Below the pieces are notes generated by a model. It was not told where the DNA came from. It saw only the letters and a list, made by a program, of their open reading frames with translations, and ran no database searches. From Candidatus Binatia bacterium (GTDB lineage Bacteria > Eisenbacteria > RBG-16-71-46 > SZUA-252), in assembly GCA_035631035.1 (NCBI GenBank), contig DASQJL010000096.1:1234-65233 (forward strand): 64,000 nt of DNA, in the 5' to 3' direction. A program made the position numbers and the translations under genes. Below are positions 31,053 to 44,168 of this stretch, in pieces (the stretch's first letter is position 1; each line of letters begins with the position of its first letter).

Positions 31053-32573
31053 TCAGCTCTCCAGGGGTCTCGGGAAGGTCGTTGCGGCCGGAATGAGCTC
31101 CGCGTCGGGTCCCGGGTCGCGGCGGAGCAGCGTCGCGATCGCGATGCCGAACGAGAGCGCCTGGCCGACCAGCCCCACCATGAGGTCGGCTCGATCCGGC
31201 AGCGGGGGCGCCCCCACGATCAACGCCCACGCCAGCGCGAAGGCGATCACCAGCGGAACGCGGCCGCGAATGCCTCCCGCCAGGTACGTCAGCAGCCAGA
31301 GCGCCGTGACGGTGACGTAGGAGGAGGGGGCGAACGGCGCCCGCAACGAGGCGATCGTCAGGAGCGCGAGCCAGGTGCGCGCCTCGCCCACACGGCTCCG
31401 GAATCCGCGAGCGGCCCTCTGATTGAGCGCGAGGATCGCCAGGGTGAAGAGCCAGACCAACGCGAGGCCCACCCCCCGGCTCATCCCCGGCAGGCCGAGA
31501 AGGGCCAGCTTCGGGACCACGCTCGCGATCGAGAAGTTCCGCGACAGGAAGAAGACAGGCACGCCGGGCCGGTTCACGAAGGAGAACGCCTCGCCGGTGA
31601 CGATGCGCGGCACCTGGAACGTGAAGAAGTCCAGGAGCGGCTTCCACCCCACGACCGGGATCGAGAGGAGCGTGAACCCGGCGAGGAAGGCGACGCTCCA
31701 CCCGGCCGCCGGCCACTGGCGGCGCAGCGCCAGGTAGAGAAGGAACATCGCCGGAAAGACTTTCCCGAGGATCGCGAACGCGAGCAGGGCTCCGCCCAGT
31801 GCCGCGCGCCGCTCCTCGAACGCGATCATCGCCACCACGGTGAGGCCGACCGCCATCATGTGGAACTGCCCGAACTGGAGATCGAACATCGTCGGGATCG
31901 AGGCGAAGAGCAGGGGCAAAAGCAGCCCCGCCGTCAGCCCGTAGCGTCCGCCGACCCACGCGGCGAGGAGGAGAACGGCCGCCATCAGCGACACGGTCTG
32001 GAGCGCGAACCACGCGGCGCGAATCGCGTCGAAGGAGTTCGTGGCCGCGAGCGCCGCGCGCGGCAGCAGCAGGAAGGGCGACGGGTACTCGTACGGGTCC
32101 TCGATCCAGCGGCTCAGCCCCGCGACCGGAGAGGGAAATCCCGGCGCGCTGTCGACCGGCGCCGTGAAGGCGGGATACCAGCGCGGGTCGTAGATGTTCT
32201 CCTCGCCCCGGCGCGCGAGATCGGCGGCGTGCACGTAGGCGGACAGGCACTGGTGGTTCGAGACGAGCGGGTCGGGAATCGTGGAGCCCCAGAGCCTCGA
32301 GGAGTCGGCCATGAAGGCGGAGAGGCGGCCCATCTGCGCGATCGCCACGAGCGCGAGGAGAAGCCAGGCCGCGGCCACGAGCGGGCGCCGCCGGATGGCT
32401 CCGCGCAGCGATCCCGGAAGACGGCGGGCGCCCCACGGGAGGGCGGCGAAGCAGGCGATCAGGGCCGCGACGGCCAGCGGGACCGATGCCCGTGCCGCGA
32501 TCGGGACGATCACGGCGGCCGCGAGCGCGGAACCGAAGAAGGCGACGGTCCACTGCTCGAGGCTGGGGCGCAT
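31053..32573 (-). CDS. Polytopic membrane protein, GT-C-type glycosyltransferase-like (DUF2029/GT87-like)
   Basis: Trimmed to ATG 32573. At least 10 hydrophobic segments, with loop motifs as in membrane mannosyl/arabinosyl-transferase-like proteins. The family call is tentative. Confidence 0.6.
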   Translation of the reverse strand: MRPSLEQWTVAFFGSALAAAVIVPIAARASVPLAVAALIACFAALPWGARRLPGSLRGAIRRRPLVAAAWLLLALVAIAQMGRLSAFMADSSRLWGSTIPDPLVSNHQCLSAYVHAADLARRGEENIYDPRWYPAFTAPVDSAPGFPSPVAGLSRWIEDPYEYPSPFLLLPRAALAATNSFDAIRAAWFALQTVSLMAAVLLLAAWVGGRYGLTAGLLLPLLFASIPTMFDLQFGQFHMMAVGLTVVAMIAFEERRAALGGALLAFAILGKVFPAMFLLYLALRRQWPAAGWSVAFLAGFTLLSIPVVGWKPLLDFFTFQVPRIVTGEAFSFVNRPGVPVFFLSRNFSIASVVPKLALLGLPGMSRGVGLALVWLFTLAILALNQRAARGFRSRVGEARTWLALLTIASLRAPFAPSSYVTVTALWLLTYLAGGIRGRVPLVIAFALAWALIVGAPPLPDRADLMVGLVGQALSFGIAIATLLRRDPGPDAELIPAATTFPRPLES

Positions 32574-33061
32574 CAGAATCCGGTCTCGATCGGCTCCGAC
32601 GGCAACCCTCCTTCGATCAGGTCCGCGACCAGCGATCCCAGCCGCATCGGGGCGAATTCCTTCGATTCGGCCGGGAGCTCCGCGAGGGGCCACCAGCGGA
32701 GCTCGGCCATCGCCTCCCGCTCGGACGGCACCGGATTGCGCGAGGTGTCGGGCTCGAACCGATCGGCGCGGACCAGGTAGAAGTGCTCGCGCTCATTCAC
32801 CCACTGGCCGGCCCAGCGGTAGCGGCCGTGACGGACCCAGACCTGGGCGCCGATGTCGAGATCGCCTCGTCCCAGCTCTTCCTCCAGCTCCCGGCGCAGC
32901 GCTTCGCGGTGCGTCTCGCCGGGGGCGATGCCCCCTCCCGGCGTGATCCAGAGCCTCCGGTCCGGAACGACGAGGTGGATCAGGAGCAGCGCGGGATCGG
33001 GCGTCAGGATCAGCGCGCGCACGCACTCACGCAAGCGAAACGTCGGAGCGAACGCGGTCAT
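32573..33061 (-). CDS. NUDIX hydrolase
   Basis: Nudix box GGGIAPGETHREALRRELEEELG. Trimmed to ATG 33061. The stop shares 1 nt with the downstream start (TGATG). Confidence 0.85.
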   Translation of the reverse strand: MTAFAPTFRLRECVRALILTPDPALLLIHLVVPDRRLWITPGGGIAPGETHREALRRELEEELGRGDLDIGAQVWVRHGRYRWAGQWVNEREHFYLVRADRFEPDTSRNPVPSEREAMAELRWWPLAELPAESKEFAPMRLGSLVADLIEGGLPSEPIETGF

Positions 33062-33071
33062 GCGATGGCGT

Positions 33072-33860
33072 TCAGGGCCGCTTGCGGGCTTTCCAGACTT
33101 CCTCCGACGGCCACTGTCGCGCCCATTCCGCCGTGACGAAGGGATGGCGCGTGGTCGCGCCTTCCGGCGGGCGCACCTCGACGAGGTCCTCCACTTCGAA
33201 TCCGGCACCGCGCAGGATCCGGAACCATTCGCCGTGGCTCTTGTGGAACTCGACGCCCGAATCGCCGGGCCAGGCGATCCGCCCCATCCCGAACGCGGGG
33301 CGAAGAAGTCGCTCGCCGGCCGCCTCGGTTTCATCCTCCGGCATGCAGAGCATCAGGAGGAACGCGTTGGTCAGGAAGTGGAGCCGCCCGCCGGGTCGGA
33401 GGAGTCGCGCGGCCTCCGGCACCCATTGCTCCGGATCGGCCCAGAGACACGCCCCGTATTCGGAGATCGCGAAGTCGAACGATGCGTCCGGATAGGGGAC
33501 CGACTCCGCGTTGCCATGGACCAGCGGAAATTCGAGGCCGTGCTCGCGCTGAAGCCGGCGCGCGGTTTCGAGCTGCGTCTCGGAATTGTCGATGCCGACG
33601 ACGCGGGCGCCGCGGCGCGCGAGCCAGGAGGAAACGTACGCCGTGCCGCATCCCAGCTCGATCGCGTCGCGGCCCGAGAGGTCGTCCGGAAGCATTCCGA
33701 TCTCTCGCTCGGGAATGTTCCAGATGCCCCAGGTCGGCTCGCGCGCCGCCCAGTGGCGCTCGCCCGAGGCGACGTAATCGCTCGCTTTCTGGTCCCAGTA
33801 CGTCCGGTTGTGGAGGACGTGCTCCGGAAGCTCCGTCACACGCTTCCCGGTTACATCCAC
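33072..33860 (-). CDS. Class I SAM-dependent methyltransferase
   Basis: Motif I AIELGCGTAYVSSWLARRGARVVGID. 262 aa. Confidence 0.85.
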   Translation of the reverse strand: MDVTGKRVTELPEHVLHNRTYWDQKASDYVASGERHWAAREPTWGIWNIPEREIGMLPDDLSGRDAIELGCGTAYVSSWLARRGARVVGIDNSETQLETARRLQREHGLEFPLVHGNAESVPYPDASFDFAISEYGACLWADPEQWVPEAARLLRPGGRLHFLTNAFLLMLCMPEDETEAAGERLLRPAFGMGRIAWPGDSGVEFHKSHGEWFRILRGAGFEVEDLVEVRPPEGATTRHPFVTAEWARQWPSEEVWKARKRP

Positions 33861-34363
33861 GGCTCGTCCGCGGTCGGTCCATAGATCGAGGGCACCTTGC
33901 CTCCCGCCATGCGGAGGTAGATGGAGAACTGCCCTCGATGGTGGATCTGATCGTGGAGCAGGAACCAGCAGACGTTCATGCGCGGGATGTCGCCCATCTG
34001 TTTCGGGCCGACGAAGAAGCGGACCGTCTCTTGAAGTTTCTCCTCCGGCATCGACCGGATCAGGTTGCCGAACTCGCGATGGGCGTCCTCGACGGCCTCG
34101 ATCAGCTCGAACCAGGAGCTGGGCGCGGGCGGAGGGTTGCCCGAGGGGGCGCTGCTCGCAAACGCGTCGTTCATGAGCATCACGCCCAGGCCGCGTTCCA
34201 GCTTGAAGACCCAGGCCAGCTCGCGCGCGGTCTTCGACATGGCGTGGGGCCGGAGATCCAGCTTGTCCTCGGGGTAGGCGTGGAGGATACGCATGGTGCG
34301 CTGGTGCTCGTCTTCGTAGACGGCCAGGAACTGCTCTTTATGGGAATGGGTGATGGTCGCCAT
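33851..34363 (-). CDS. DinB-family (DinB/YfiT-like four-helix bundle) protein
   Basis: 170 aa. His triad context: LRPHAMSKTARELAWVF, HREFGNL, LLHDQIHHRGQFSIYLR. Confidence 0.75.
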   Translation of the reverse strand: MATITHSHKEQFLAVYEDEHQRTMRILHAYPEDKLDLRPHAMSKTARELAWVFKLERGLGVMLMNDAFASSAPSGNPPPAPSSWFELIEAVEDAHREFGNLIRSMPEEKLQETVRFFVGPKQMGDIPRMNVCWFLLHDQIHHRGQFSIYLRMAGGKVPSIYGPTADEPWM

Positions 34364-34476
34364 GGGGCAGGCTCCTAACGCCGCGCCCGGGGCGCGGACG
34401 GGAAGAGACTAGTTCGCGATCGATCGGAGCCGGGGGCTGCTCCCGGGTCGGAATCGGATCGTAACTCGATTGTCGC

Positions 34477-35061
34477 CTATGGGCGGGGCGGCTTGGAAGC
34501 GGGATAGAGGGTGCCCACCTGGCGCTCCCGATGGGCCGCGAACAGCGTTCGTTCGACCGCTCGCGCCGTGACGTCGAGCTCCGCCGCCACGCCCCGAAGC
34601 ACGTGGAGGAACTGGAACCACTGATCGAGGGTGAGCCCGGCGCCCCGGGCATTGCCCCGCACGGCGCCCATCGCGTGCAGCAGCTGCCACACGCGAATGT
34701 CGATCACGCCGTAGCGCCCGGGCTCGAGCATAGTGAGCACCGCGGAGGCCGAGGGGGCGGAGACGCCCCTCAGCGAGAGCAGGCGCTCGAAGCGCTCCCG
34801 CTCCTCCACGCTCCGGATCGCCGCTTCCGTGGCGGTGCGGACGCGGCGCGCGCCGTTTTCGCGGACGAGTCCCGTGGATCGCGGGGATTTCCAGCGGCAG
34901 ATCCGGATCAGCTCCCCCCTCGTGAGGTAGCCGCGGACGTTCGCGGGACGCACCGCTTCGATCAGGGAGGAAGTCGCCGGGTCCTCGACGGCGATCATCC
35001 GCTCCCGCACGAGCGCGATCAGGGAAGGTTCGGGGCGCGAGCCTGCGATCACGCCCCGCAT
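34477..35061 (-). CDS. Hypothetical protein with helix-hairpin-helix (HhH-GPD-like) motif
   Basis: 194 aa. LLSLRGVSAPSASAVLTMLEPGRYGVIDIRVWQLL fits the L..L.G[IV]..-A..[IV]L...-P...-[IV]D pattern of HhH DNA-binding/glycosylase folds. It lies 6 nt downstream of the DUF3037 gene. Confidence 0.5.
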   Translation of the reverse strand: MRGVIAGSRPEPSLIALVRERMIAVEDPATSSLIEAVRPANVRGYLTRGELIRICRWKSPRSTGLVRENGARRVRTATEAAIRSVEERERFERLLSLRGVSAPSASAVLTMLEPGRYGVIDIRVWQLLHAMGAVRGNARGAGLTLDQWFQFLHVLRGVAAELDVTARAVERTLFAAHRERQVGTLYPASKPPRP

Positions 35062-35067
35062 CCGCGG

Positions 35068-35466
35068 TCAGCTTCGCCGCGGCGTCCGGACCATCGTCTC
35101 GAGCAGGTGCTCGAGGAGTGCGGCCGGGTCCGTGCAGGCGCCGGTGTGGACGGCCGAGGTCTGGATGACCGTGCTGCGCGGCGCGGTGAGCCAGCGGAAG
35201 CGCTCCCGCTTCGAGAGGGCCCCGATCGGTCCCGCGGAGGGGCCGCCCGCGCAGATCGCGGGGAGGGTCGCCAAGTGGGCGCGGATCGTCGCAAGGTCGG
35301 CGCCGGGGTCCAGCGCGAGCAGCCGGCCCTCGTCCAGCTCGATGCGGGCCTCCAGGAAGTCGCTCGCCGGGCAGGAGACGATCGCTCCGGCATTGATGAA
35401 CTCCTCCCGCTCCACCTTCGGGACCACGCGGACGATGGCGTAATCGTACGGGCTAGGCTCGGGCAC
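35068..35466 (-). CDS. DUF3037-domain protein
   Basis: 132 aa. The N-terminal YDYAIVRVVPKVEREEFINAGAIVSC matches my recollection of the DUF3037 signature (Y.VLR.VP.VERGEF.N.GV). Its start overlaps the kinase gene by 14 nt. Confidence 0.65.
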   Translation of the reverse strand: MPEPSPYDYAIVRVVPKVEREEFINAGAIVSCPASDFLEARIELDEGRLLALDPGADLATIRAHLATLPAICAGGPSAGPIGALSKRERFRWLTAPRSTVIQTSAVHTGACTDPAALLEHLLETMVRTPRRS

Positions 35467-36217
35467 GGATCGCCTCTTCCAGGAAGGGCCGCGGCGTCTC
35501 CAGGCGGCGCGCCAGATACTTCACGTAGGCATCGCGATGCTCGGCGGCCGTCGCGAAGGGTGCGTCGACCAGCCAGGTGTCGGGGACCAGCGAGACGATG
35601 CGCCGCAGCTCGTCCGGAGTGACCCGCTTGTCCAGCGCGGCATCGGCTTCCTCCATCCGGGAGGCCGCGGGAAGGAGCACGTGGTCGCGAATCATCGGGA
35701 AGGGATCGCGGCTCCGCTCCAGCCAGTGCTCCCACGTGTGGTGGAAGTAGAGCGCCGATCCGTGGTCGATGAGCCACGTGCGCCGGTGCCACACGAGCAG
35801 GTTGGTATTGCGTGGCGTCCGGTCGATGTTCGTGACGAAGGCGTCGAACCAGACCACCAGGGATGCGAACCCCGGATCCGGCTTCTCCGCCACGGGATCG
35901 AACATGATCGAGCCCGGCAGGTAGTCGAGCGCCAGGTTCAGCCCGCCGCTCGCGCGGATCAGGTCCTGGATCTCCGGGTCGGGTTCCGTGCGCGCGAGGT
36001 CGGGGTCCAGCTCCACGAACACGATCTCCGGAACGGGAAGCCCGGCGGCGCGCGCGATCTCGCCGCACACGAGCTCCGCGATCAGCGCCTTGGCGCCATG
36101 TCCCGCGCCGCGGAACTTGAGCACGTACATGCCGTCGTCGTCGGCTTCGACGATCGCGGGCAGCGAGCCTCCCTCGCGGAGCGGGGTCACGTAGCGCGTG
36201 GCCGCGACCGTGCGCAT
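35453..36217 (-). CDS. Short HipA-like (HipA_C-type) Ser/Thr kinase-family protein
   Basis: 254 aa. Gly-rich YVLKFRGAGHGAKAL. Catalytic-loop-like VTNIDRTPRNTNLLV, followed by LIDHGSALYF (D.H..N / DxG analogues of HipA). Confidence 0.6.
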   Translation of the reverse strand: MRTVAATRYVTPLREGGSLPAIVEADDDGMYVLKFRGAGHGAKALIAELVCGEIARAAGLPVPEIVFVELDPDLARTEPDPEIQDLIRASGGLNLALDYLPGSIMFDPVAEKPDPGFASLVVWFDAFVTNIDRTPRNTNLLVWHRRTWLIDHGSALYFHHTWEHWLERSRDPFPMIRDHVLLPAASRMEEADAALDKRVTPDELRRIVSLVPDTWLVDAPFATAAEHRDAYVKYLARRLETPRPFLEEAIRARA

Positions 36218-36234
36218 CTAGAGGGCGCGCCGCG

Positions 36235-36705
36235 TCATCGGCCCAGGAACCTGTCGATCTGCCGGCGGTGCCGCAGCACGTGCACGATCGCGTGCTCGAA
36301 GAGCTGCTCGAAGTCATAGATCGGTCCCCAGCGAACGGTCATCTTCATCTCGGTGCATTCCTGGTCCGTCATCTCCCAGTGGCCCTCGAGGGTCTCGGCC
36401 ATGTAGGCGAGCGTCTTCCGCATCTCGGCCGGCGTATCGGCGCGGCGGACCGGTTCGTCCCACCGGACCACGGGCTCCTTCTTCCAGTGCGTCCGCATGT
36501 AGTTCGCGTAGCCGTACCCGGCTCGGACCACGTGCCTCATGATGGTCTGGATCGAGCGGCAATCCTCGTCCTGGGTCGTGGTGTCGCGGACCCGATCGAA
36601 CTCCTCATCCGAGATCCCCTCCAGAATCCGGATCAGCTCCGCCGAGGCGCGCTCGTACTCGTCCATCAACGCGCCGACGGGTCCCTTCCTGTAGGTCTTG
36701 GCCAC
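36235..36705 (-). CDS. DinB-family protein (second copy)
   Basis: Trimmed to GTG 36705, preceded by GGAGG at 4-nt spacing (alternative ATG 36666). Contains IMRHVVRAGYGY and C-terminal FEHAIVHVLRHRRQI. Confidence 0.7.
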   Translation of the reverse strand: MAKTYRKGPVGALMDEYERASAELIRILEGISDEEFDRVRDTTTQDEDCRSIQTIMRHVVRAGYGYANYMRTHWKKEPVVRWDEPVRRADTPAEMRKTLAYMAETLEGHWEMTDQECTEMKMTVRWGPIYDFEQLFEHAIVHVLRHRRQIDRFLGR

Positions 36706-36901
36706 GGCTCCTCCGCAAGGTGGTGTGTGGGCGGCGATTCTGGCCCAGGAACCGGCCGGAAGCCAAGGGCTGCTTCCAGCCATGGCCCTTCCCGGCGGTG
36801 AAGAATTCTCTGAGCGCGCCGATACCTTGGTAGCGCGCCGGGGGCCGGGGCTCCGCGTGGCGCGCCCTCGCCGCGACCCACCCTGCAACCGGAGCGAAAC
36901 C

Positions 36902-38173
36902 GTGGGCAAGAAGCACCGCTCGTTCAGGATATCGCTGCCCCCCGCCGTGGGCCGGATCGCGAAGGGGGCCCTCAAGAGCAAGCTCCTCATGGTGCTCGTG
37001 GGACTCTTCGTGCTCGGGTTCATCGCGGGAAAGCAGTCCGAGCCCGATCCCACCGGCGCGCCGTTCGAGGAGTTGTTCGAGAACCTGAGCGTCGTATCCT
37101 ACCGCGACTCTCCCTCGGACTCGGCCTCGCACTTCATGGTCGAGCTGTCCGCGCGCGGCAAGGTCTTCCGCGAGTACGACGTGGACGAGCAGCGTTTCGT
37201 GGAGCCCGCCCGCGGCCGCGACTACCGGCGCATGATCGGCGCCACTCGCTATGAGCCGCTCGTCGTGCGCGGCCACGTGGACCGCGGCTTCTGGCTGGAG
37301 CTGTCCAACCAGAAGAGCCCCGAGATCCTGCCCGACCAGTTCCAGGAGATGTACCAGACCACGCTGGACTACGTGAAACCGGTGTCGGTCATCGCCTCGA
37401 TCGCGGGGACGCTCTCCGGCTATTCCGTCGGATACCGCGCCGGCACGTGGGGCACCTCGCTCGCCAATCCCGCCGTGCAGAAGCGGGTGCTGTCGACCGC
37501 GGGCGTCGGGCGGATGATCACGCGCGAGGCCTGGCGCCGCGTGCTCCTGGAGCCCGTGGTGATGGGGCACGAGAGCGACCCCGAGCGGTTCGCCGCGGCG
37601 CGCGAGACCCAGCGGATCTACACGAACTTCTTCCGGCTCGCGCTGGCCGACAGCAACGACTTCATCCATGACGAGGCCCGGCGGCTCGACGCCGCGGGCT
37701 ACACGCGCGAGGCGATCGCCATGCTGGAGTTCACCTACTCGGCGCTGCGAGCGGCCGACGACACCGTGCACCTCGAGAGCGCCGATTTCCGGGCCGTCGA
37801 GGAATGGGCCAGCCTGATCGCGCACCGCGGCCACTGGGCGCCCACGTCGATCCCCGCATCGGGCGAGGCGCGCGTGCGCTACCTGGGGACCCTGGCCTAC
37901 TACGGCCTGACGCCGGTCGCCGACGACGCGCATCGGGTCTGGGTCGGGCCGCGCGTGCTGGTGAAGGATGGCGAGGAGGAGGGGTTCGTGGCGGACGAGA
38001 TCCCCTCGATCCGCGCCGCGTGTCCCTTGACGTGGCAGGACTGGCTGCGCCACGACACCACCGGGATGAGCAGCAACGAGTGGACGGCGCAGTGGATGAG
38101 GGAATCGAAGCAGCTCGCGCAGATGGTGAGTTTCGGAAAGCAGGTCGTGCGGCAGATGCAGCCCGCGCGGTAG
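36902..38173 (+). CDS. Membrane-anchored hypothetical protein (single N-terminal TM, ~380-aa soluble domain)
   Basis: Trimmed to GTG 36902 (VGKKHRSF...LLMVLVGLFVLGFIAG). Balanced, non-junk composition; I recognised no motif. Confidence 0.55.
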   Translation: MGKKHRSFRISLPPAVGRIAKGALKSKLLMVLVGLFVLGFIAGKQSEPDPTGAPFEELFENLSVVSYRDSPSDSASHFMVELSARGKVFREYDVDEQRFVEPARGRDYRRMIGATRYEPLVVRGHVDRGFWLELSNQKSPEILPDQFQEMYQTTLDYVKPVSVIASIAGTLSGYSVGYRAGTWGTSLANPAVQKRVLSTAGVGRMITREAWRRVLLEPVVMGHESDPERFAAARETQRIYTNFFRLALADSNDFIHDEARRLDAAGYTREAIAMLEFTYSALRAADDTVHLESADFRAVEEWASLIAHRGHWAPTSIPASGEARVRYLGTLAYYGLTPVADDAHRVWVGPRVLVKDGEEEGFVADEIPSIRAACPLTWQDWLRHDTTGMSSNEWTAQWMRESKQLAQMVSFGKQVVRQMQPAR

Positions 38174-38669: not shown

Positions 38670-39428
38670 ATGAAGAAGAAGCCCAACCCCAGCGGGGCCC
38701 GGGGAAAGCGGCCCCCCACGCGCACGCCCTCTCCCGAGGCGATCCTCTCCTACATCGAGGAGTCGCTTCGCGATACGGGCCGCCCGCCCACGATTCGGGA
38801 AATCGGAGCCGTCTTCGGGATCGCCTCCACCAATGGAGTCCGCTACCACCTCGATAAGCTGGAGCGGGAAGGCAGGATCCGGCGGGATCGATTCACCAGT
38901 CGAGGCATCGAAGTACAGTTGGCCGGCGGGCGCGGCGCGACGCATATGGACACCTTGCCCTCCATGTCGCCCGCGTTTCGCCGAGCCAACGTTCCTCGAG
39001 GGACTGTGGCTGGCGTCCCCGGTGGCCTTGAACGGGATCTCCTTGAAGTCCCCCTCCTGGGCCACGTCGCCGCCGGCGCGCCCCTCCTCGCCGAAGAGCA
39101 CATCGAGGACACCCTGACCCTCGACCCGGCGATGGTGCGGCCCGGCGGCAAGCACTTCGCCCTGCGGGTGCGCGGCGACAGCATGAAGAACGCCGGGATC
39201 CTGGACGGCGACGTGGTCATCGTCCGGCACGACACTCCCGTGAAGAGCGGCGAGATCGCCGTCGTGCTGATCGGCGACGAAGCCACCGTGAAGCGCTTCT
39301 TTCCGCGGCGCGACAAGCTCCTGCTATTTCCTGAAAACGAAGACTACGAACCGATCGAAGTGCGTCCGGCCGATCCCGACGTGCGGGTGGCGGGCAAGGT
39401 GGTGGGTGTATTTCGGAGGCTCGGCTGA
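38670..39428 (+). CDS. lexA: LexA repressor (with basic N-terminal extension and expanded linker)
   Basis: Winged-helix TIREIGAVFGIASTNGVRYHLDKLEREGRI. Cleavage site HVAAGAP. Ser in RGDSM and Lys in TVKRF. Confidence 0.92.
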   Translation: MKKKPNPSGARGKRPPTRTPSPEAILSYIEESLRDTGRPPTIREIGAVFGIASTNGVRYHLDKLEREGRIRRDRFTSRGIEVQLAGGRGATHMDTLPSMSPAFRRANVPRGTVAGVPGGLERDLLEVPLLGHVAAGAPLLAEEHIEDTLTLDPAMVRPGGKHFALRVRGDSMKNAGILDGDVVIVRHDTPVKSGEIAVVLIGDEATVKRFFPRRDKLLLFPENEDYEPIEVRPADPDVRVAGKVVGVFRRLG

Positions 39429-39724
39429 TGCTCCATGCGCGATCGTTTCCATCCGAGAGAGACGGCTACTTCATGATCGAGTCCATCCACGACCCCATCG
39501 AGGTCATCACCATGTTCTCCGGCGGAACGATGAAGCCGATCCGCTTCCGCTGGAAGAACAAGACCGTGCGCATCGCCAAGGTGACGGGGGACTGGGTCCG
39601 GCACGAGGGGGAGAACAAGGTCCACTACTTCGCGCTTCTCGCCGACAACGCGGACTACTACGAGATCCGCTACGACGCGCGCGAGATGACCTGGCAGCTC
39701 ACGCGGGTGTGGATGGAGGGGTAG
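39428..39724 (+). CDS. Hypothetical 98-aa protein translationally coupled to lexA
   Basis: The ATG overlaps the lexA TGA (TGATG). GGAGG lies 8 nt upstream. Ordinary composition (KPIRFRWKNKTVRIAKVTGDWVRHEGENKVHYFALLADNADYYEIRYD). I recognised no family. Confidence 0.6.
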   Translation: MLHARSFPSERDGYFMIESIHDPIEVITMFSGGTMKPIRFRWKNKTVRIAKVTGDWVRHEGENKVHYFALLADNADYYEIRYDAREMTWQLTRVWMEG

Positions 39725-40193
39725 CCCCGCTCCACGTCCACGAGCCGAGCAGGCGCTCACGCCGGCGCCCGGGCCAGCGGCGGAACTCCTCGGACGGAAC
39801 GAACCCGAGCAGGCTGTCGCAGTCCTGGCGCCGGATGAAGCGGACCCACCCCGACAGCGGTTCCCGAACGAGAACGACACGGCCGGCGAAGATCTCCTCC
39901 AGCGCTCCGATGACGGCGCCGAGGATGGCTCCATCGGACGCCGCGCCCCAGACCAGGATCTTCTCGGCGGGACCGGGAGGGACGCCGTCGTCGTAGGCGA
40001 TCGTCGCCCCCTCCTCGTAGAGGTCGGCGCGAAGCTCATGTCCGGGGCGGCCCGGCACCGGCAGACGGACCGACATGTGGACCGTCATGGAATCCACGCT
40101 CGGGTCCAGCTCCGGATGAAGGGCCCGTAGACGCGCGGCCAGGAGCGTCGCGACCCGGCGGGTCTGCTCGGTCAGGGTGAGCGCGTGCTTCAA
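39699..40193 (-). CDS. Hypothetical protein
   Basis: Trimmed to TTG 40193, which overlaps the HAD stop (TTGA). 164 aa, no motif recognised. The start is uncertain. Confidence 0.45.
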   Translation of the reverse strand: MKHALTLTEQTRRVATLLAARLRALHPELDPSVDSMTVHMSVRLPVPGRPGHELRADLYEEGATIAYDDGVPPGPAEKILVWGAASDGAILGAVIGALEEIFAGRVVLVREPLSGWVRFIRRQDCDSLLGFVPSEEFRRWPGRRRERLLGSWTWSGATPPSTPA

Positions 40194-40939
40194 GGGATCG
40201 CGCCCTCGTCGACATGCCCCGGGGCATGTCGCAGCTCGGACAGGCTGCGCACGATGCGATCGGGGCGTACGTCGCTGCCCGATGGGATCCCCGCGCCTCC
40301 TCGGTCGATCCAGATGGCGTAGATCCCGAGGCGCTGCGGGGCGGCGACGTCCCATTCGAGATTGTCCCCGGCCATCCAGGTCTCGTGCGGCGCGGCCTGC
40401 AGCTCGTCCAGCGCGATCCGGTACACGCGCGGATCGGGCTTGCCGTAACCCAGCTCCCCCTCGATCAGAACCAAATCGAAGAGCTCGGCCAGCTGAAAGC
40501 GCACCACCTTGCTCCTCTGGGCAGCCGCGGCGCCGTTCGTGAGGAGGGCCAGCCTGCGGCCGCTCTGCTTGAACCAGCGCACGGTCTCGATCGCATCCTC
40601 CAGCGGCTGGAGGCCCAGGTGCCGCTGGGCGCGATAGTGCTCCGCGATCTTCTCGGCCAGCTCCGGCGACTCGAGCCCGATCTCCACGAGCGAAGCGCGT
40701 ACGACCTCCCGCCGCGCGGCATCCAGGTCCAGGCGCCCCTCCCGATGGCGCTCGGGATCGGACCAGAACCACGCGCGCGTTTTCTCGATGACGGCGTGGA
40801 GCGCGGAGGGATCGACCGCGCCCAGCTCGTCGCGGTGGGCGCGGCAGGCCTCCAACCAGCAGTGGGAGACGTTGCCGCTGTCGTCGAGGATCGTGTCGTC
40901 GAGATCGAGGAGGACGGCCTTGGGAAGGGCTCCGGTCAC
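40190..40939 (-). CDS. HAD-superfamily hydrolase
   Basis: Motif I VLLDLDDTILDD. Motif II LLTNG. Motif IV-like MAGDNLEWD. Confidence 0.85.
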   Translation of the reverse strand: MTGALPKAVLLDLDDTILDDSGNVSHCWLEACRAHRDELGAVDPSALHAVIEKTRAWFWSDPERHREGRLDLDAARREVVRASLVEIGLESPELAEKIAEHYRAQRHLGLQPLEDAIETVRWFKQSGRRLALLTNGAAAAQRSKVVRFQLAELFDLVLIEGELGYGKPDPRVYRIALDELQAAPHETWMAGDNLEWDVAAPQRLGIYAIWIDRGGAGIPSGSDVRPDRIVRSLSELRHAPGHVDEGAIP

Positions 40940-40949
40940 GGGCGCCGTC

Positions 40950-41750
40950 TCAAGCCCTGCTCCCGCGCACGGCCCACGCGCGCGCGATCAGGTGGATCGA
41001 GCCGTCCGCCTCGACCGGCAGCCGCGAGCGGATTCGGTCCCGCAGCGCGCCCCGGCGCGCCTCTTCCAGCGACATGGCGTAGCCCGGCGCGGGGCCCTGG
41101 CCGCCGAGGAAGGGGGACCAGTAGTCGTCGAAATCGCGAAACACGGTCGGGACGTCGATCGCACGCGTCCGGACGTCGCTCAGGTGCCCTCCGGAAAATA
41201 CATCGGCGAGCGCCTCGGGGTGGCAGAGCGGGAATCGGGTCCCTTCGTCCAGCTCGCGGGCCGCGGGATCGAGGGCGATGGCGGCGTCCCAGAAATGCCG
41301 GAGCAGCTCCATGCGCCCCGAGTAGTCCCAGACATAGGCCGCGGCGACGCCTCCGGGGCGGAGCGCGCGAGACATCTCGCCCACGGCGAGTGCCGGCTCC
41401 GGAACGAAGTTGAGGAGCAGGGCGGAAACCGCTGCGTCCACCGAGGCGTCCTCGACCGGAAGCGATCGGGCGTCGCCCACCTCGAACGTCGCGACCGTGC
41501 GCTCCCCGATGCGCGCACGGGCGTAGTCGACGTACGCGGGGGAGGCGTCGATGCTCCGCACCGACCGGGGGCTGGAGCGATCGAGAAGGGTCTGGGTCAA
41601 GGCACCGGTGCCGCACCCGACGTCGAGCCAGGCCCTGCCCGGCGGCACGTCGAGCCACGCGAGGAATTCGGGGGCCACGCGACGGCTCCATCGGCCGACG
41701 AAGGGCTCGTAGAGGTCGCCCGCGGCCCAGACGTCTTCGGGGGTCATCAC
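40950..41750 (-). CDS. Class I SAM-dependent methyltransferase
   Basis: Motif I WLDVGCGTGALTQ. 266 aa. Divergent from dinB. Confidence 0.85.
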   Translation of the reverse strand: MMTPEDVWAAGDLYEPFVGRWSRRVAPEFLAWLDVPPGRAWLDVGCGTGALTQTLLDRSSPRSVRSIDASPAYVDYARARIGERTVATFEVGDARSLPVEDASVDAAVSALLLNFVPEPALAVGEMSRALRPGGVAAAYVWDYSGRMELLRHFWDAAIALDPAARELDEGTRFPLCHPEALADVFSGGHLSDVRTRAIDVPTVFRDFDDYWSPFLGGQGPAPGYAMSLEEARRGALRDRIRSRLPVEADGSIHLIARAWAVRGSRA

Positions 41751-41780
41751 GACAGTTTACTTGCCCCTTGCGGGCGCCAT

Positions 41781-41810
41781 CTTGACAACTGCACAAATGT
41801 GCAATATCGT
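41781..41810 (+). promoter_or_regulatory. dinB-operon promoter with embedded candidate LexA operator (perfect palindrome)
   Basis: cTTGACAacTGCACAAATGTGCAaTATCGT. -35 at 41782-41787, a 17-nt spacer, -10 at 41805-41810. The palindrome TGCACA-AA-TGTGCA lies at 41790-41803. Confidence 0.6.
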
Positions 41811-41882
41811 AGTCGTGTGACCTGCTTGAGGCGCCTCGCCAGTCCTCGATCGTGGAACGCAGAGCCCTGGGAGTGACCTTCC

Positions 41883-43154
41883 GTGCGGATCGTGGCGCAC
41901 ATCGACATGGATGCCTTTTTCGCCTCGGTCGAGGAGAAGCTGAACCCGCGGCTCGCGGGAAAGCCGCTGGTCGTGGGAGGGTCCAGGGACAGCCGCGGGG
42001 TCGTCTCGGCGGCCAACTACGCGGCGCGTCCGTACGGGATCCACGCCGGCATGCCGATTGCCGAGGCGGTGCGCCTCTGTCCTGAAGCGGCCTTCATCGA
42101 AGGCGACCCCAGGAAGTACGTTCACATCTCTCTCCAGATCCTCGACACGCTGAAAGACTTCACCCCCATCGTCGAGCCGTTCAGCATCGACGAGGCGTTC
42201 CTCGACCTGACCGCGGTGGAGCGTCTTCGTCCTCGAACGGAAGACGGCGACCACGAGACCTGCCTGAACGCGGCGATCCCGCTCGCCCAGGCGATCCAGC
42301 GCGCGGTGCATCGGCGCGTGGGGCTGACGGCCTCGATCGGGATCGCCCCCAACAAGTACGTCGCCAAGATGGGGAGCGGCCTCCGGAAGCCGAACGGGCT
42401 CACGGTGCTCTCGATCCGCCGCTTTCGCGAGATCTTCGAATCGAAGCCGGTCAACGAGCTGTGGGGGATCGGAGAGAAGACGGCGGCTTCGCTCGCCACA
42501 CTCGGCATCCGCACGGCGGGGCAGCTCGCCCGCTTTCCCCGGGAGTTCCTGACCTATCATTTCGGGCTGAGCGGCGATCACATGCAGGATGCCGCGCGGG
42601 GCGACGACGAATCCGAGGTGGTGCCCTACTTCGAAGGGGTGCCGGTCAAGTCGATGGGGCACGAGTACACGCTGCCGGAGGACGTGTCGGATCGCGAGCG
42701 CATCCGCGCGCACCTCCTCCGCCTGAGCGATCAGGTGGGCCGACGCCTTCGCGTCGACGGATACCTGGGCCGTGTGATCGCGGTGAAGTTCCGCAATGCG
42801 CGCTTCAAGACCACCATCCGCCAGCGCGCGCTGGCCGAGGTGACCGACGACGAGAACGTCATCTATGGCACCGCGTGCATCCTCCTCGACGAGAACTGGG
42901 ACGGAAAGCCGCTGCGCCTGGTCGGCGTCTCGGTGTCGGACCTCGTCTCGGCGCAGGGATTCCATCAGCACGATCTCTTCTCCACCGACGAGCGCCGGCG
43001 AAGAATGACCGAGGCTGCGGATTCGCTGCGGAACAAGTTCGGGGACGCGGTCCTGGTGCGGGCGGGAGCGCTGGATCATGGCGACACGCAGCGCCTCTCT
43101 CGTGAGGGAGCCAGTCGGAGTCTCGTCCGGGTCCTCGCCGACGAGCGACGATGA
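41883..43154 (+). CDS. dinB: DNA polymerase IV (Y-family)
   Basis: GTG start. IAHIDMDAFFASVEE, SIDEAFLDLT, IGIAPNKYVAKM, LWGIGEKT. Confidence 0.92.
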   Translation: MRIVAHIDMDAFFASVEEKLNPRLAGKPLVVGGSRDSRGVVSAANYAARPYGIHAGMPIAEAVRLCPEAAFIEGDPRKYVHISLQILDTLKDFTPIVEPFSIDEAFLDLTAVERLRPRTEDGDHETCLNAAIPLAQAIQRAVHRRVGLTASIGIAPNKYVAKMGSGLRKPNGLTVLSIRRFREIFESKPVNELWGIGEKTAASLATLGIRTAGQLARFPREFLTYHFGLSGDHMQDAARGDDESEVVPYFEGVPVKSMGHEYTLPEDVSDRERIRAHLLRLSDQVGRRLRVDGYLGRVIAVKFRNARFKTTIRQRALAEVTDDENVIYGTACILLDENWDGKPLRLVGVSVSDLVSAQGFHQHDLFSTDERRRRMTEAADSLRNKFGDAVLVRAGALDHGDTQRLSREGASRSLVRVLADERR

Positions 43155-44143
43155 GCGACCGACCCAAGATCGTGCTCGGCACCTCGGGATGGTCCTTCAA
43201 GGACTGGGTGGGGCCCTTCTATCCGCCCGGCACGAATCGGGCGCACATGCTGGACTACTACGCGGGCGAGTTCCAGGCGGTCGAGGTGAACTCCACCTAT
43301 TACCGGATTCCGCACTGGCGCACGTTCGAGGCGATCGCGAAGAAGACGCCTCCCGGGTTCGAGATCGTCGTGAAGACGCACCACGACATGACGCACCTGC
43401 GCTCCCGCGAGCCCGATCTCTACCGGGACTTCGAGCGCTCCATCCAGCCGCTGCTCGAGGCGGGGAAGCTCACGGGGATCCTCGCGCAATTCCCCTACGC
43501 GTTCCGGCGCACGCGTGAAAACGAGGAGTTTCTTCACGCCCTGCCCGACCTCCTCGGCCGATGGGTACCGCTCTTCGTGGAGTTCCGCCACCGGTCCTGG
43601 GTGGACGACGCCGTCTTTCAGGATCTCCAGAAGGAGGGCCTTGGCTACGTCAGCGTGGACGAGCCGGACCTTCCGGGCCTGGTCCCGCCGATCGCGCGCC
43701 GCACGGGGCCGATCGGGTACGTCCGCTTTCATGGCCGGAACAAGGAGAAGTGGTGGGGGGCCGAGTCGCGCGATCGAGGGGCGCCCGACGGGCCGGGAGT
43801 GAAGCGGGATGCCGCGAAGAGCGCAACGCCCGATGACAGGGGCAAGGCCCGCACGCGAGTCCGCGCCGGTGCGGACTTGGGCCCGCTCTTCAGCGGCACT
43901 CCCGACCATCCCGCCGAGGCGCCACCCTTGCCGGCTCCGCCCGCCTCCGAGCCGCGCACGTCCAGCACGCGCTACGACTGGTCCTACACCGAAGAGGAGC
44001 TGCGCGAGTGGATGGACAAGATCCGTGAGATGACGCAGCAGGCCAAGAAGACGTTCGTCTTCTTCAACAACTGCCACGTGGGGCAGGCGGCGACCAGCGC
44101 CAAGCTGATGCGGAAGCTGCTCGAGGGGGAGGGGATGCTGTGA
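43151..44143 (+). CDS. DUF72 (YecE-like) protein with a ~70-aa low-complexity insertion
   Basis: The ATG overlaps the dinB stop (ATGA). GTSGWSFKDWVGPFYP, VEVNSTYYRIP, EFRHRSW, RYDWSYTEEEL. The insert GAESRDRG...EPRTSST lies between the last two blocks. Confidence 0.8.
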   Translation: MSDRPKIVLGTSGWSFKDWVGPFYPPGTNRAHMLDYYAGEFQAVEVNSTYYRIPHWRTFEAIAKKTPPGFEIVVKTHHDMTHLRSREPDLYRDFERSIQPLLEAGKLTGILAQFPYAFRRTRENEEFLHALPDLLGRWVPLFVEFRHRSWVDDAVFQDLQKEGLGYVSVDEPDLPGLVPPIARRTGPIGYVRFHGRNKEKWWGAESRDRGAPDGPGVKRDAAKSATPDDRGKARTRVRAGADLGPLFSGTPDHPAEAPPLPAPPASEPRTSSTRYDWSYTEEELREWMDKIREMTQQAKKTFVFFNNCHVGQAATSAKLMRKLLEGEGML

Positions 44144-44168
44144 GCCGGGGCGCGAGCGGAGCGGGGAC

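What the first reader, a model, noticed from the sequence alone, without database searches (positions are those of the whole stretch)
34477..36217. Three-gene module: short HipA-like kinase, DUF3037 protein, HhH-like protein, with no HipB partner
- Seen: three minus-strand genes are tightly packed. The kinase stop and DUF3037 start overlap by 14 nt, and the gap to the third gene is 6 nt.
- The 254-aa first product has a Gly-rich loop (FRGAGHGAKA) and a catalytic-loop-like NIDRTPRNTNLL + IDHG, but it is far shorter than canonical HipA (~440 aa).
- The second product begins YDYAIVRVVPKVEREEFINAGAIV, the DUF3037 signature as I recall it.
- The third carries an HhH-type motif (LRGVSAPSASAVLTML...VIDIRVW).
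- No HTH/HipB-like antitoxin is present. The triad is flanked by two DinB-family (metal-dependent four-helix-bundle) genes.
- Established: HipA kinases are toxins that phosphorylate translation factors; DUF3037 is uncharacterised.
- Inference: this looks like a non-canonical kinase-based toxin-antitoxin or stress/defence module, in which DUF3037 and/or the HhH protein replaces HipB. I recall HipA-like/DUF3037 adjacency recurring in other genomes but cannot verify that here.
Basis: partly seen in the sequence, partly recalled or inferred. Interest (0 to 1): 0.7.

Follow-up and report, generated by a model that had tools for sequence, protein, structure and literature searches.

The report
Two-gene kinase cassette plus unrelated neighbour
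The three genes exist, but only the first two (a small HipA-like kinase and its DUF3037 partner) form a conserved unit, a shortened relative of the published HipAD / DS-6 / PDC-M66 anti-phage toxin-antitoxin pair; the third gene is an unrelated DNA-glycosylase-like gene that is adjacent only in this lineage.

Summary
There are three minus-strand genes: a kinase at 35453-36217, DUF3037 at 35068-35466 (14-nt overlap), and ORF3 at 34477-35061 (6-nt gap). There is no HTH gene, and DinB-family genes lie on both sides. Pfam confirms HipA_2 (5e-19) and DUF3037 (4e-45). ORF3 has an HhH-GPD glycosylase-like fold.

The "triad" reading fails. The kinase sits directly upstream of DUF3037 in 55/55 related loci with enough room, but an ORF3 homologue follows in only 1/53. 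Conversely, only 3/80 species-representative genomes with an ORF3 homologue have the pair beside it. In one 5.7-Mb contig the pair and ORF3 lie about 2.9 Mb apart. A close relative has DinB-ORF3-DinB with no pair. ORF3 is about 69% nt identical to close relatives, where the pair and both flanks are 88-97%.

The pair is already published as PDC-M66 / DS-6 / HipAD. There the kinase is needed for phage defence and deleting the DUF3037 gene is toxic. The window's version is a distant homologue (26% and 19% identity). Its DUF3037 protein (132 aa) lacks the roughly 150-aa C-terminal domain of the validated partners. This short form is abundant, very conserved, and usually sits among ordinary metabolic genes, so a toxin-antitoxin or defence role is inferred, not shown. 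Interest is low to moderate.

The parts
35453..36217 (-). HipA_2-family Ser/Thr kinase (254 aa), the predicted toxin/effector of the two-gene cassette
   Evidence: Pfam PF20613 E=5.4e-19. PADLOC PDC-M66A E=3.7e-22. PHROG 3162 E=3e-26. 26% identical (E=7e-13) to the annotated HipA toxin of phage PhiR5_1. K34, E48, D132, N137 and D151 are invariant from the window to the phage protein.
35068..35466 (-). Short (132 aa) DUF3037-only protein, the predicted neutralising partner (antitoxin) of the kinase
   Evidence: Pfam PF11236 E=4.1e-45, full model 1-118. PADLOC PDC-M66B E=8e-7, but only profile positions 3-66 of 281. 19% identical (E=1e-7) to the N-terminal DUF3037 domain of phage HipD. AF2 model pLDDT 88, with no significant PDB fold match.
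35453..35466 (-). 14-nt overlap between the kinase stop and the DUF3037 GTG start (probable translational coupling)
   Evidence: The same overlap or a gap of 10 nt or less is seen in related loci, in cultured-organism records and in the phage hipAD pair (4-nt overlap).
34477..35061 (-). ORF3: an HhH-GPD (Ogg/MutY-like) glycosylase-fold protein. It is a neighbour, NOT part of the conserved cassette.
   Evidence: Pfam OGG PF21790 E=4.6e-4, below the gathering score. AF2 pLDDT 90. All top Foldseek PDB hits are Ogg2/OGG1/MutY, prob 0.99-1.0, TM 0.44-0.48. The family profile aligns D121 to MutY catalytic D138. It is next to the pair in only 3/80 and 1/53 loci.
36235..36700 (-). Upstream DinB_2-family gene. 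The true start is probably near 36700; the ORF as listed runs to 37053. It is a flank, probably co-transcribed.
   Evidence: Pfam DinB_2/DinB on residues 132-266 of the listed ORF. Its stop is 17 nt before the kinase ATG. In relative L005 the same gene is followed after 4 nt directly by ORF3.
33851..34363 (-). Downstream DinB-family gene, a flank separated from ORF3 by 113 nt
   Evidence: Pfam DinB E=4.2e-10. Present in L005 but absent in L003 and L004.

Best explanation
The finding joins two separate things.

(1) Genes 1 and 2 are a self-contained two-gene cassette: a minimal HipA_2-family Ser/Thr kinase followed by, and translationally coupled to, a DUF3037 protein. It is a short-form homologue of the published HipAD / DS-6 / PDC-M66 system. 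By analogy, the kinase is a growth-arresting toxin. The DUF3037 protein binds and silences it through its conserved N-terminal core (Y9, P16, E22, N25, G27). Loss or displacement of the partner, for example on phage infection, frees the kinase to phosphorylate an essential but unknown target, which arrests growth or aborts infection. This version has no DNA-binding C-terminal domain on the partner, so any autoregulation must work differently.

(2) Gene 3 is an independent HhH-GPD glycosylase-like gene. It keeps the catalytic Asp and has Pro at the Lys position, so it is predicted to be monofunctional or only DNA-binding. It belongs to the local DNA-damage-response neighbourhood. The cassette lies between it and the upstream DinB gene only in this lineage.

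Shown here: gene anatomy, family assignments, pair-only conservation and the independence of ORF3. Inferred: toxicity, neutralisation, trigger and target.
For: Pair is the unit:
- The kinase is directly upstream of DUF3037 in 55/55 metagenome loci with at least 700 nt of room.
- No other gene family recurs beside the pair; the best is present in 9 loci.
- The same two-gene layout occurs in Parabacteroides, Chondrinema, Streptomyces, Blastocatellia and other contigs.

ORF3 is independent:
- 3/80 species genomes with ORF3 have the pair beside it, and 1/53 pair loci have ORF3 downstream.
- One 5.7-Mb contig has the pair at about 2.13 Mb and ORF3 at about 5.06 Mb.
- The syntenic relative L005 has DinB, a 4-nt gap, ORF3, then DinB, with no pair.
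- ORF3 is 69% nt identical to L003/L004, against 88-97% for the pair and both flanks.
- L171 and L172 have an unrelated amidase gene overlapping the DUF3037 stop instead.

Homology to the validated system:
- PADLOC PDC-M66A/B hits.
- Phage PhiR5_1 hipA/hipD next to cI, with HipA_2 at 1e-76 and DUF3037 at 8e-24.
- Kinase catalytic residues are invariant.
- Literature: deleting HipA abolishes defence and deleting DUF3037 is toxic (PMC12548924); a catalytic mutant of DS-6A loses defence, and AF3 predicts an A-B complex (PMC13092281).

The pair is accessory: it shows presence/absence among relatives whose flanks are 80-83% identical.
Against: - Homology to the tested systems is distant (26% and 19% identity). 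The partner lacks the roughly 150-aa C-terminal domain present in every validated example.
- No short-form pair has been tested, as far as the searched literature shows.
- The short form is unusually conserved for a toxin-antitoxin or defence system: the top 120 hits are 73-93% identical for the kinase and 72-96% for DUF3037, with sources naming several phyla.
- It mostly sits among ordinary metabolic genes, not in defence islands or mobile elements. There is no tRNA in the window and no integrase or transposase among the genes scanned.
- I could not reproduce the link to canonical HipA by sequence: HipA_C E=0.16, hhalign probability 0.2, and no HipA hit in the PDB.
Confidence: 0.6

Rival explanations
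1. The short-form HipA_2/DUF3037 pair is not a toxin-antitoxin or defence module. It is a conserved, non-lethal regulatory kinase with a partner or substrate (stress or metabolic signalling), kept by purifying selection in many soil and gut bacteria.
For: - Very high conservation: the kinase is 73-78% identical to hits that sources name as Blastocatellia, Saccharimonadia and Acidobacteriota, and the top 120 DUF3037 hits are 72-96% identical.
- Contexts are ordinary metabolic genes (pyrE/argH/gltA in Parabacteroides, ccrA in Streptomyces, a peptidase and a PQQ-repeat protein, cobalt transport, amidase) with no defence genes.
- The partner lacks the DNA-binding domain that validated systems use for HipB-like behaviour.
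Against: - It belongs to the same Pfam, PADLOC and PHROG families as the validated toxic/defensive pairs, with the same gene order and coupling.
- It shows presence/absence among close relatives.
- About 75% identity across phyla is more easily explained by horizontal spread of a cassette than by vertical housekeeping descent (inference).
- There is no conserved genomic position.
Confidence: 0.25
2. One reading: a genuine three-gene module in which the HhH protein (ORF3) supplies the DNA-binding or regulatory (HipB-like) function that the short DUF3037 protein lacks.
For: - The 6-nt gap, same strand.
- The same order in L003, L004, L083, L084 and L134, and with a 467-nt gap in L006.
- One 318-aa protein, P0023, fuses DUF3037 to an ORF3-like domain.
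- ORF3 has a DNA-binding fold, and the short DUF3037 has no DNA-binding domain.
Against: - 52/53 short-form pairs with downstream room lack ORF3, and 77/80 ORF3 genes lack the pair.
- The two are 2.9 Mb apart in one genome.
- ORF3 is 69% nt identical where the pair is 91-97%.
- There is no similarity between ORF3 and the HipD C-terminal domain.
- The family sizes differ roughly tenfold: 751 hits against 6909 and at least 8000.
- Tight spacing is the norm in this genome. Other lineages have a different gene overlapping the DUF3037 stop.
- P0023 is a single sequence on a 2.3-kb contig. The loss of one stop codon across a 6-nt gap would explain it.
Confidence: 0.06
3. A mechanistic variant: the pair is a 'split HipA' like HipT/HipS. 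DUF3037 plays the role of the HipA N-terminal subdomain (HipS) and blocks the kinase active site.
For: - The kinase (254 aa) lacks the HipA N-terminal region.
Against: - Foldseek finds no HipS/HipA match.
- hhalign of the DUF3037 profile against E. coli HipA gives probability 0.26.
- The gene order is reversed relative to hipS-hipT.
Confidence: 0.08

Closest known systems
HipAD / DS-6 / PADLOC PDC-M66 (HipA_2 kinase plus DUF3037 protein; Brenes & Laub 2025, cited in PMC13092281; DefensePredictor PMC13092281; Retron-Sda1 locus PMC12548924; annotated hipA/hipD in Escherichia phage PhiR5_1, PV340545)
   Same: Same two Pfam families, same order (kinase first, then DUF3037), overlapping genes, no HipB, and conserved kinase catalytic residues.
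   Different: The partner here is 132 aa (DUF3037 domain only), against 275-281 aa with an extra C-terminal domain (DUF1829 or DNA-binding-like). Identity is only 26% and 19%. The location is chromosomal, beside DNA-repair and metabolic genes, not in a prophage immunity region. It is untested.
Canonical HipBA (E. coli K-12 hipBA)
   Same: A kinase toxin of the protein-kinase-like clan. Pfam/KINtaro group PF20613 with PF07804 (10.64898/2026.09.18.752743). The general logic is a kinase held in check by a cognate partner.
   Different: There is no HipB HTH antitoxin and no HipA_N/Couple_hipA region. The kinase is 254 aa, not 440. The toxin gene comes first. No sequence similarity to HipA was detectable here.
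HipBST (HipT kinase plus HipS antitoxin plus HipB)
   Same: A truncated kinase neutralised by a small non-HTH protein.
HhH-GPD DNA glycosylases (Ogg2 of M. jannaschii, S. solfataricus and T. maritima; MutY) - applies to ORF3 only
   Same: A helix-hairpin-helix followed by a conserved Asp (D121, aligned to MutY D138). An all-helical two-lobed fold. The top structural hits are all Ogg or MutY.
   Different: The similarity is weak (Foldseek E about 0.03, TM below 0.5; Pfam OGG below threshold). The catalytic Lys position of bifunctional Ogg enzymes is an invariant Pro (P103). The family-specific WKSPR motif has no known counterpart.

Membership tests
HipAD / DS-6 / PDC-M66 | Kinase of the HipA_2 family (PF20613 / PDC-M66A) | tested here: met
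   PF20613 E=5.4e-19, above the gathering score. PDC-M66A E=3.7e-22, covering 11-250 of 270.
HipAD / DS-6 / PDC-M66 | A DUF3037-domain protein encoded immediately downstream on the same strand | tested here: met
   PF11236 E=4.1e-45. 14-nt overlap. The arrangement is conserved in 55/55 loci.
HipAD / DS-6 / PDC-M66 | The partner carries a C-terminal domain after DUF3037 (DUF1829 or DNA-binding-like; about 275-281 aa in total) | tested here: not met
   The window protein is 132 aa and ends where the HipD C-terminal domain begins. Only positions 3-66 of the 281-position PDC-M66B profile are matched.
HipAD / DS-6 / PDC-M66 | Intact kinase catalytic residues (a catalytic mutant abolishes defence in DS-6) | tested here: met
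   K34, E48, D132, N137 and D151 are invariant across short forms and the phage HipA.
HipAD / DS-6 / PDC-M66 | The kinase is toxic, DUF3037 neutralises it, and the pair protects against phage | not testable with these tools
   Known only for distant homologues (PMC12548924, PMC13092281).
Canonical HipBA | HipA_C (PF07804) with HipA_N/Couple_hipA domains | tested here: not met
   HipA_C E=0.16, 12 bits against a cutoff of 30.5. hhalign against E. coli HipA gives probability 0.2. The profile finds no HipA in the PDB.
Canonical HipBA | An upstream HTH antitoxin, HipB | tested here: not met
   Only 17 nt lie upstream of the kinase. No Pfam hit on any overlapping or antisense ORF.
HipBST | A HipS-like (HipA N-subdomain 1) antitoxin | tested here: inconclusive
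   [not shown]
HhH-GPD DNA glycosylase superfamily (ORF3) | An HhH motif followed by a conserved catalytic Asp, in the HhH-GPD fold | tested here: met
   Foldseek top hits 3fhg, 3knt, 3n0u, OGG1 and MutY, prob 0.99-1.0 but E about 0.03 and TM 0.44-0.48. The profile alignment places invariant D121 on MutY D138.
Ogg-type bifunctional glycosylase/lyase (ORF3) | A catalytic Lys in the HhH motif; Pfam OGG (PF21790) above threshold | tested here: not met
   The position equivalent to the catalytic Lys is an invariant Pro103 (assigned from known MutY S120 / OGG1 K249 numbering, my own knowledge). PF21790 scores 20.4 bits, below the 27-bit cutoff, and covers only the C-terminal third.

The most novel reading that the evidence does not exclude
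The short-form HipA_2/DUF3037 pair may be a distinct class and not just a truncated HipAD. In that reading it is a minimal kinase-plus-inhibitor cassette that has spread horizontally across many phyla with unusually strong sequence constraint. Its partner has a fold with no solved relative and no DNA-binding domain. It would work either through a HipS-like active-site block or as a non-defence stress-signalling switch. Current defence-finder models, built on the long form, probably under-detect it.
Probability: 0.25. Interest if true: 0.55.

Novelty: new variant of a known kind. Interest (0 to 1): 0.3.

Why it matters
- It corrects a plausible but wrong three-gene model. In this compact, GC-rich genome tight spacing is uninformative, and only comparative context separates the module from its neighbour.
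- All validated HipAD/DS-6 examples are long-form. The environmental majority seen here is a DUF3037-only short form: all top 120 of 6909 hits are 128-150 aa.
- That short form has no experimental data, is very conserved, and lies outside defence islands.
- Testing one such pair would show whether the DUF3037 core alone is enough to neutralise the kinase. It would also show whether the family's role is really phage defence.

Tried and rejected
- **Canonical HipA link by sequence.** The kinase alone and a 23-sequence profile against the PDB gave no HipA hit. hhalign against E. coli K-12 HipA gave probability 0.2. Pfam HipA_C gave E=0.16. The "HipA-like" label therefore rests on Pfam/KINtaro curation.
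- **ORF3 as a detached HipD C-terminal domain.** hhalign gave probability 0.2, so I rejected this.
- **A metal site in DUF3037.** C32, H64, C72, H107 and C111 are invariant among close homologues but not across phyla or in HipD. Rejected as a family-wide feature.
- **A conserved third gene beside the pair.** Clustering 875 flanking ORFs found none. The same analysis around ORF3 also found none.
- **NCBIfam.** No hits for any of the five proteins scanned.
- **Promoter and terminator scan of 33700-37300.** Nothing found.
- **tRNAs in the window.** None.
- **ORF3 in phage records.** No tblastn hit, although it matches PHROG 24538.
- **Literature.** Searches for "HipAD" and "HipD" returned only unrelated papers or nothing. 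Brenes & Laub 2025 is not in the searchable library, so I cite it through PMC13092281.
- **Error corrected.** My first codon count for DUF3037 used the wrong frame. redid it correctly.
Full report
**1. The observation**

The 14-nt overlap and the 6-nt gap are correct. The GTG at 35466 is the only possible start upstream of the invariant Y7-D8-Y9. All the quoted motifs are present. GC3 of 0.88-0.94 marks all three as real genes with the same codon bias as their neighbours.

Pfam gives HipA_2 (PF20613, 5.4e-19), DUF3037 (PF11236, 4.1e-45, full length), and DinB/DinB_2 for both flanking genes. No HTH gene is hidden in other frames. Two qualifications apply:
- The upstream DinB gene is just as tightly packed, with 17 nt before the kinase ATG.
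- Tight spacing is the norm here. 48% of same-strand neighbours in the window are 20 nt or less apart.

**2. The pair is already known**

PADLOC-DB matches PDC-M66A (3.7e-22) and PDC-M66B (8e-7). The literature shows the following:
- DUF3037 is "strongly associated" with HipA-like kinases, and PADLOC calls the pair PDC-M66.
- In the Retron-Sda1 locus, deleting the kinase abolished defence and deleting DUF3037 was toxic (PMC12548924).
- DS-6, renamed HipAD (Brenes & Laub 2025), needs the kinase catalytic residue. Its partner DS-6B is DUF3037 plus DUF1829 (PMC13092281).
- A tblastn search of phage records found Escherichia phage PhiR5_1 with annotated "HipA toxin" (249 aa) and "HipD antitoxin" (275 aa) directly after cI. 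These are HipA_2 (1e-76) and an N-terminal DUF3037 (8e-24).
- The window's proteins are 26% (7e-13) and 19% (1e-7) identical to them.

**3. The triad is not a module**

Starting from ORF3:
- Its family has 751 detectable members of about 185-195 aa, all unnamed, with strongly conserved WKSPR and GVSxPxASAxLTxLxPxRYGVIDIRVWQ motifs.
- A scan of one genome per species returned 80 loci. Only L003, L004 and L006 have the kinase and DUF3037 within 6 kb.

Starting from DUF3037:
- In 80 metagenome loci, the kinase is directly upstream in 55/55 loci with at least 700 nt of room.
- An ORF3 homologue is downstream in 1/53 loci with at least 600 nt of room. L083 and L084, which have less room, also carry it. 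All three have DUF3037 at least 85% identical to the window's, so they belong to its own lineage.

No other family recurs beside the pair or beside ORF3.

Direct counter-examples:
- A 5.70-Mb Blastocatellia contig carries the pair at about 2.13 Mb (L165) and its ORF3 homologue at about 5.06 Mb (L049).
- The syntenic relative L005 (the same contig stretch as L002) has flanks 80-83% identical to the window. It reads DinB, a 4-nt gap, ORF3, then DinB, with no pair.
- L171 and L172 have an amidase gene overlapping the DUF3037 stop instead.
- Cultured Parabacteroides, Chondrinema and Streptomyces have the two-gene unit among pyrE/argH/gltA, a TonB-dependent receptor gene, or ccrA. None of these extra loci contains ORF3.

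Identity to the close relatives L003 and L004:

| Gene | nt identity to L003 / L004 |
|---|---|
| Kinase | 97.5% / 90.7% |
| DUF3037 | 93.6% / 91.6% |
| Upstream DinB | 89.7% / 91.8% |
| Methyltransferase | 87.9% / 88.3% |
| ORF3 | 69.3% / 69.7% |

ORF3 also has many more synonymous differences. Its history is therefore separate from the pair's and fits allele replacement.

The only evidence for a link is one 318-aa DUF3037-ORF3 fusion protein on a 2.3-kb contig (P0023). The loss of one stop codon across the 6-nt gap would produce it.

**4. What ORF3 is**

- Its AF2 model is confident (pLDDT 90). Every top Foldseek PDB hit is an HhH-GPD glycosylase (SsOgg, MjOgg, Tm1821, OGG1, MutY). The scores are modest: E about 0.03, probability 0.99-1.0, TM 0.44-0.48.
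- The family profile aligns its HhH-GPD segment to MutY. The invariant D121 falls on catalytic D138, and the invariant P103 falls at the position of the Lys used by bifunctional enzymes.
- It shows no similarity to the HipD C-terminal domain.
- The surrounding window is rich in DNA-damage genes: LexA, DUF6504, a Y-family polymerase, an MrfA-like helicase, NUDIX and two DinB-fold proteins.
- ORF3 is best read as a local repair-type gene, probably a monofunctional glycosylase of unknown specificity (inference).

**5. The short-form pair**

- The kinase keeps K34, E48, D132, N137 and D151, which are invariant from the window to the phage HipA. It should therefore be active.
- The DUF3037 protein shares the family core with HipD (Y9, P16, E22, N25, G27, F90, Q102) but stops where the HipD C-terminal domain of about 150 aa begins. 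Only 64 of 281 PDC-M66B profile positions are matched.
- The short form dominates the databases. There are 6909 DUF3037 hits, the top 120 all 128-150 aa, and at least 8000 kinase hits.
- It is unusually conserved. The kinase is 73-78% identical to proteins that sources name as Blastocatellia, Saccharimonadia and Acidobacteriota.
- Its contexts are mostly metabolic. The window has no tRNA and no integrase, transposase or known defence gene among those scanned.

**6. Mechanism and rivals**

- **Most likely (0.6):** a kinase toxin neutralised by direct binding of the DUF3037 core and released on a trigger such as phage infection. This is the HipAD logic without a DNA-binding module. ORF3 is a bystander.
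- **Main rival (0.25):** the short form is a conserved, non-lethal regulatory pair. This is argued from its conservation and housekeeping contexts.
- **Triad model:** about 0.06.
- **HipS-like mechanism:** about 0.08.

**7. Verdict**

The real feature is a two-gene cassette. It is a short-partner variant of a known, recently validated family and sits next to an unrelated glycosylase-like gene. Interest is low to moderate (0.3). The untested, abundant and highly conserved short form is the only part that might repay experiments.

Noticed in passing
window 34477-35061 compared with L003:1363-1941 and L004:6001-6555: ORF3 is only about 69% nt identical to close relatives, while the genes on both sides are 88-97% identical. 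It also has a large excess of synonymous differences. Together with the presence or absence of the downstream DinB gene (33851-34363), this marks a small variable islet between the upstream DinB gene and the methyltransferase gene.
   Followed up: partly
window 38670-46676: A cluster of DNA-damage-response genes: LexA (38670-39428, +), DUF6504 (39428-39724, +), a Y-family polymerase (41883-43154, +), DUF72 (43151-44143, +) and an MrfA-like DEAD/MZB helicase (44169-46676, +). A HAD hydrolase (40190-40939, -) and a second methyltransferase (40950-41750, -) lie between DUF6504 and the polymerase.
   Followed up: no
protein P0023 (JGI contig of 2347 nt; not in the window): A single 318-aa protein that fuses a DUF3037 domain to an ORF3-like domain (61% identical to ORF3). 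It probably arose by loss of the stop codon across the 6-nt gap, or from a sequencing error.
   Followed up: partly
[not shown]
   Followed up: partly
L171:7761-9108 and L172:7761-9751: In two related metagenome contigs an amidase gene overlaps the DUF3037 stop codon by 23 nt and 4 nt, with a DJ-1/PfpI gene upstream. This is another lineage-specific gene packed tightly behind the pair.
   Followed up: no
window 36698-38173 (+): A conserved 423-491 aa protein with no Pfam hit, divergent from the DinB-kinase operon. A homologue sits at the same position in relative L005 (4065-5336).
   Followed up: no
L173:6250-6336: A 29-aa fragment 62% identical to part of the kinase lies about 700 nt upstream of the intact pair. 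It may be a remnant of an earlier copy.
   Followed up: no
window 32573-33334 and 33072-33860 (-): The listed NUDIX ORF (253 aa; the domain covers residues 103-222) overlaps the methyltransferase ORF by about 260 nt, so its true start is probably further downstream. The methyltransferase ORF and the downstream DinB ORF overlap by 10 nt.
   Followed up: no
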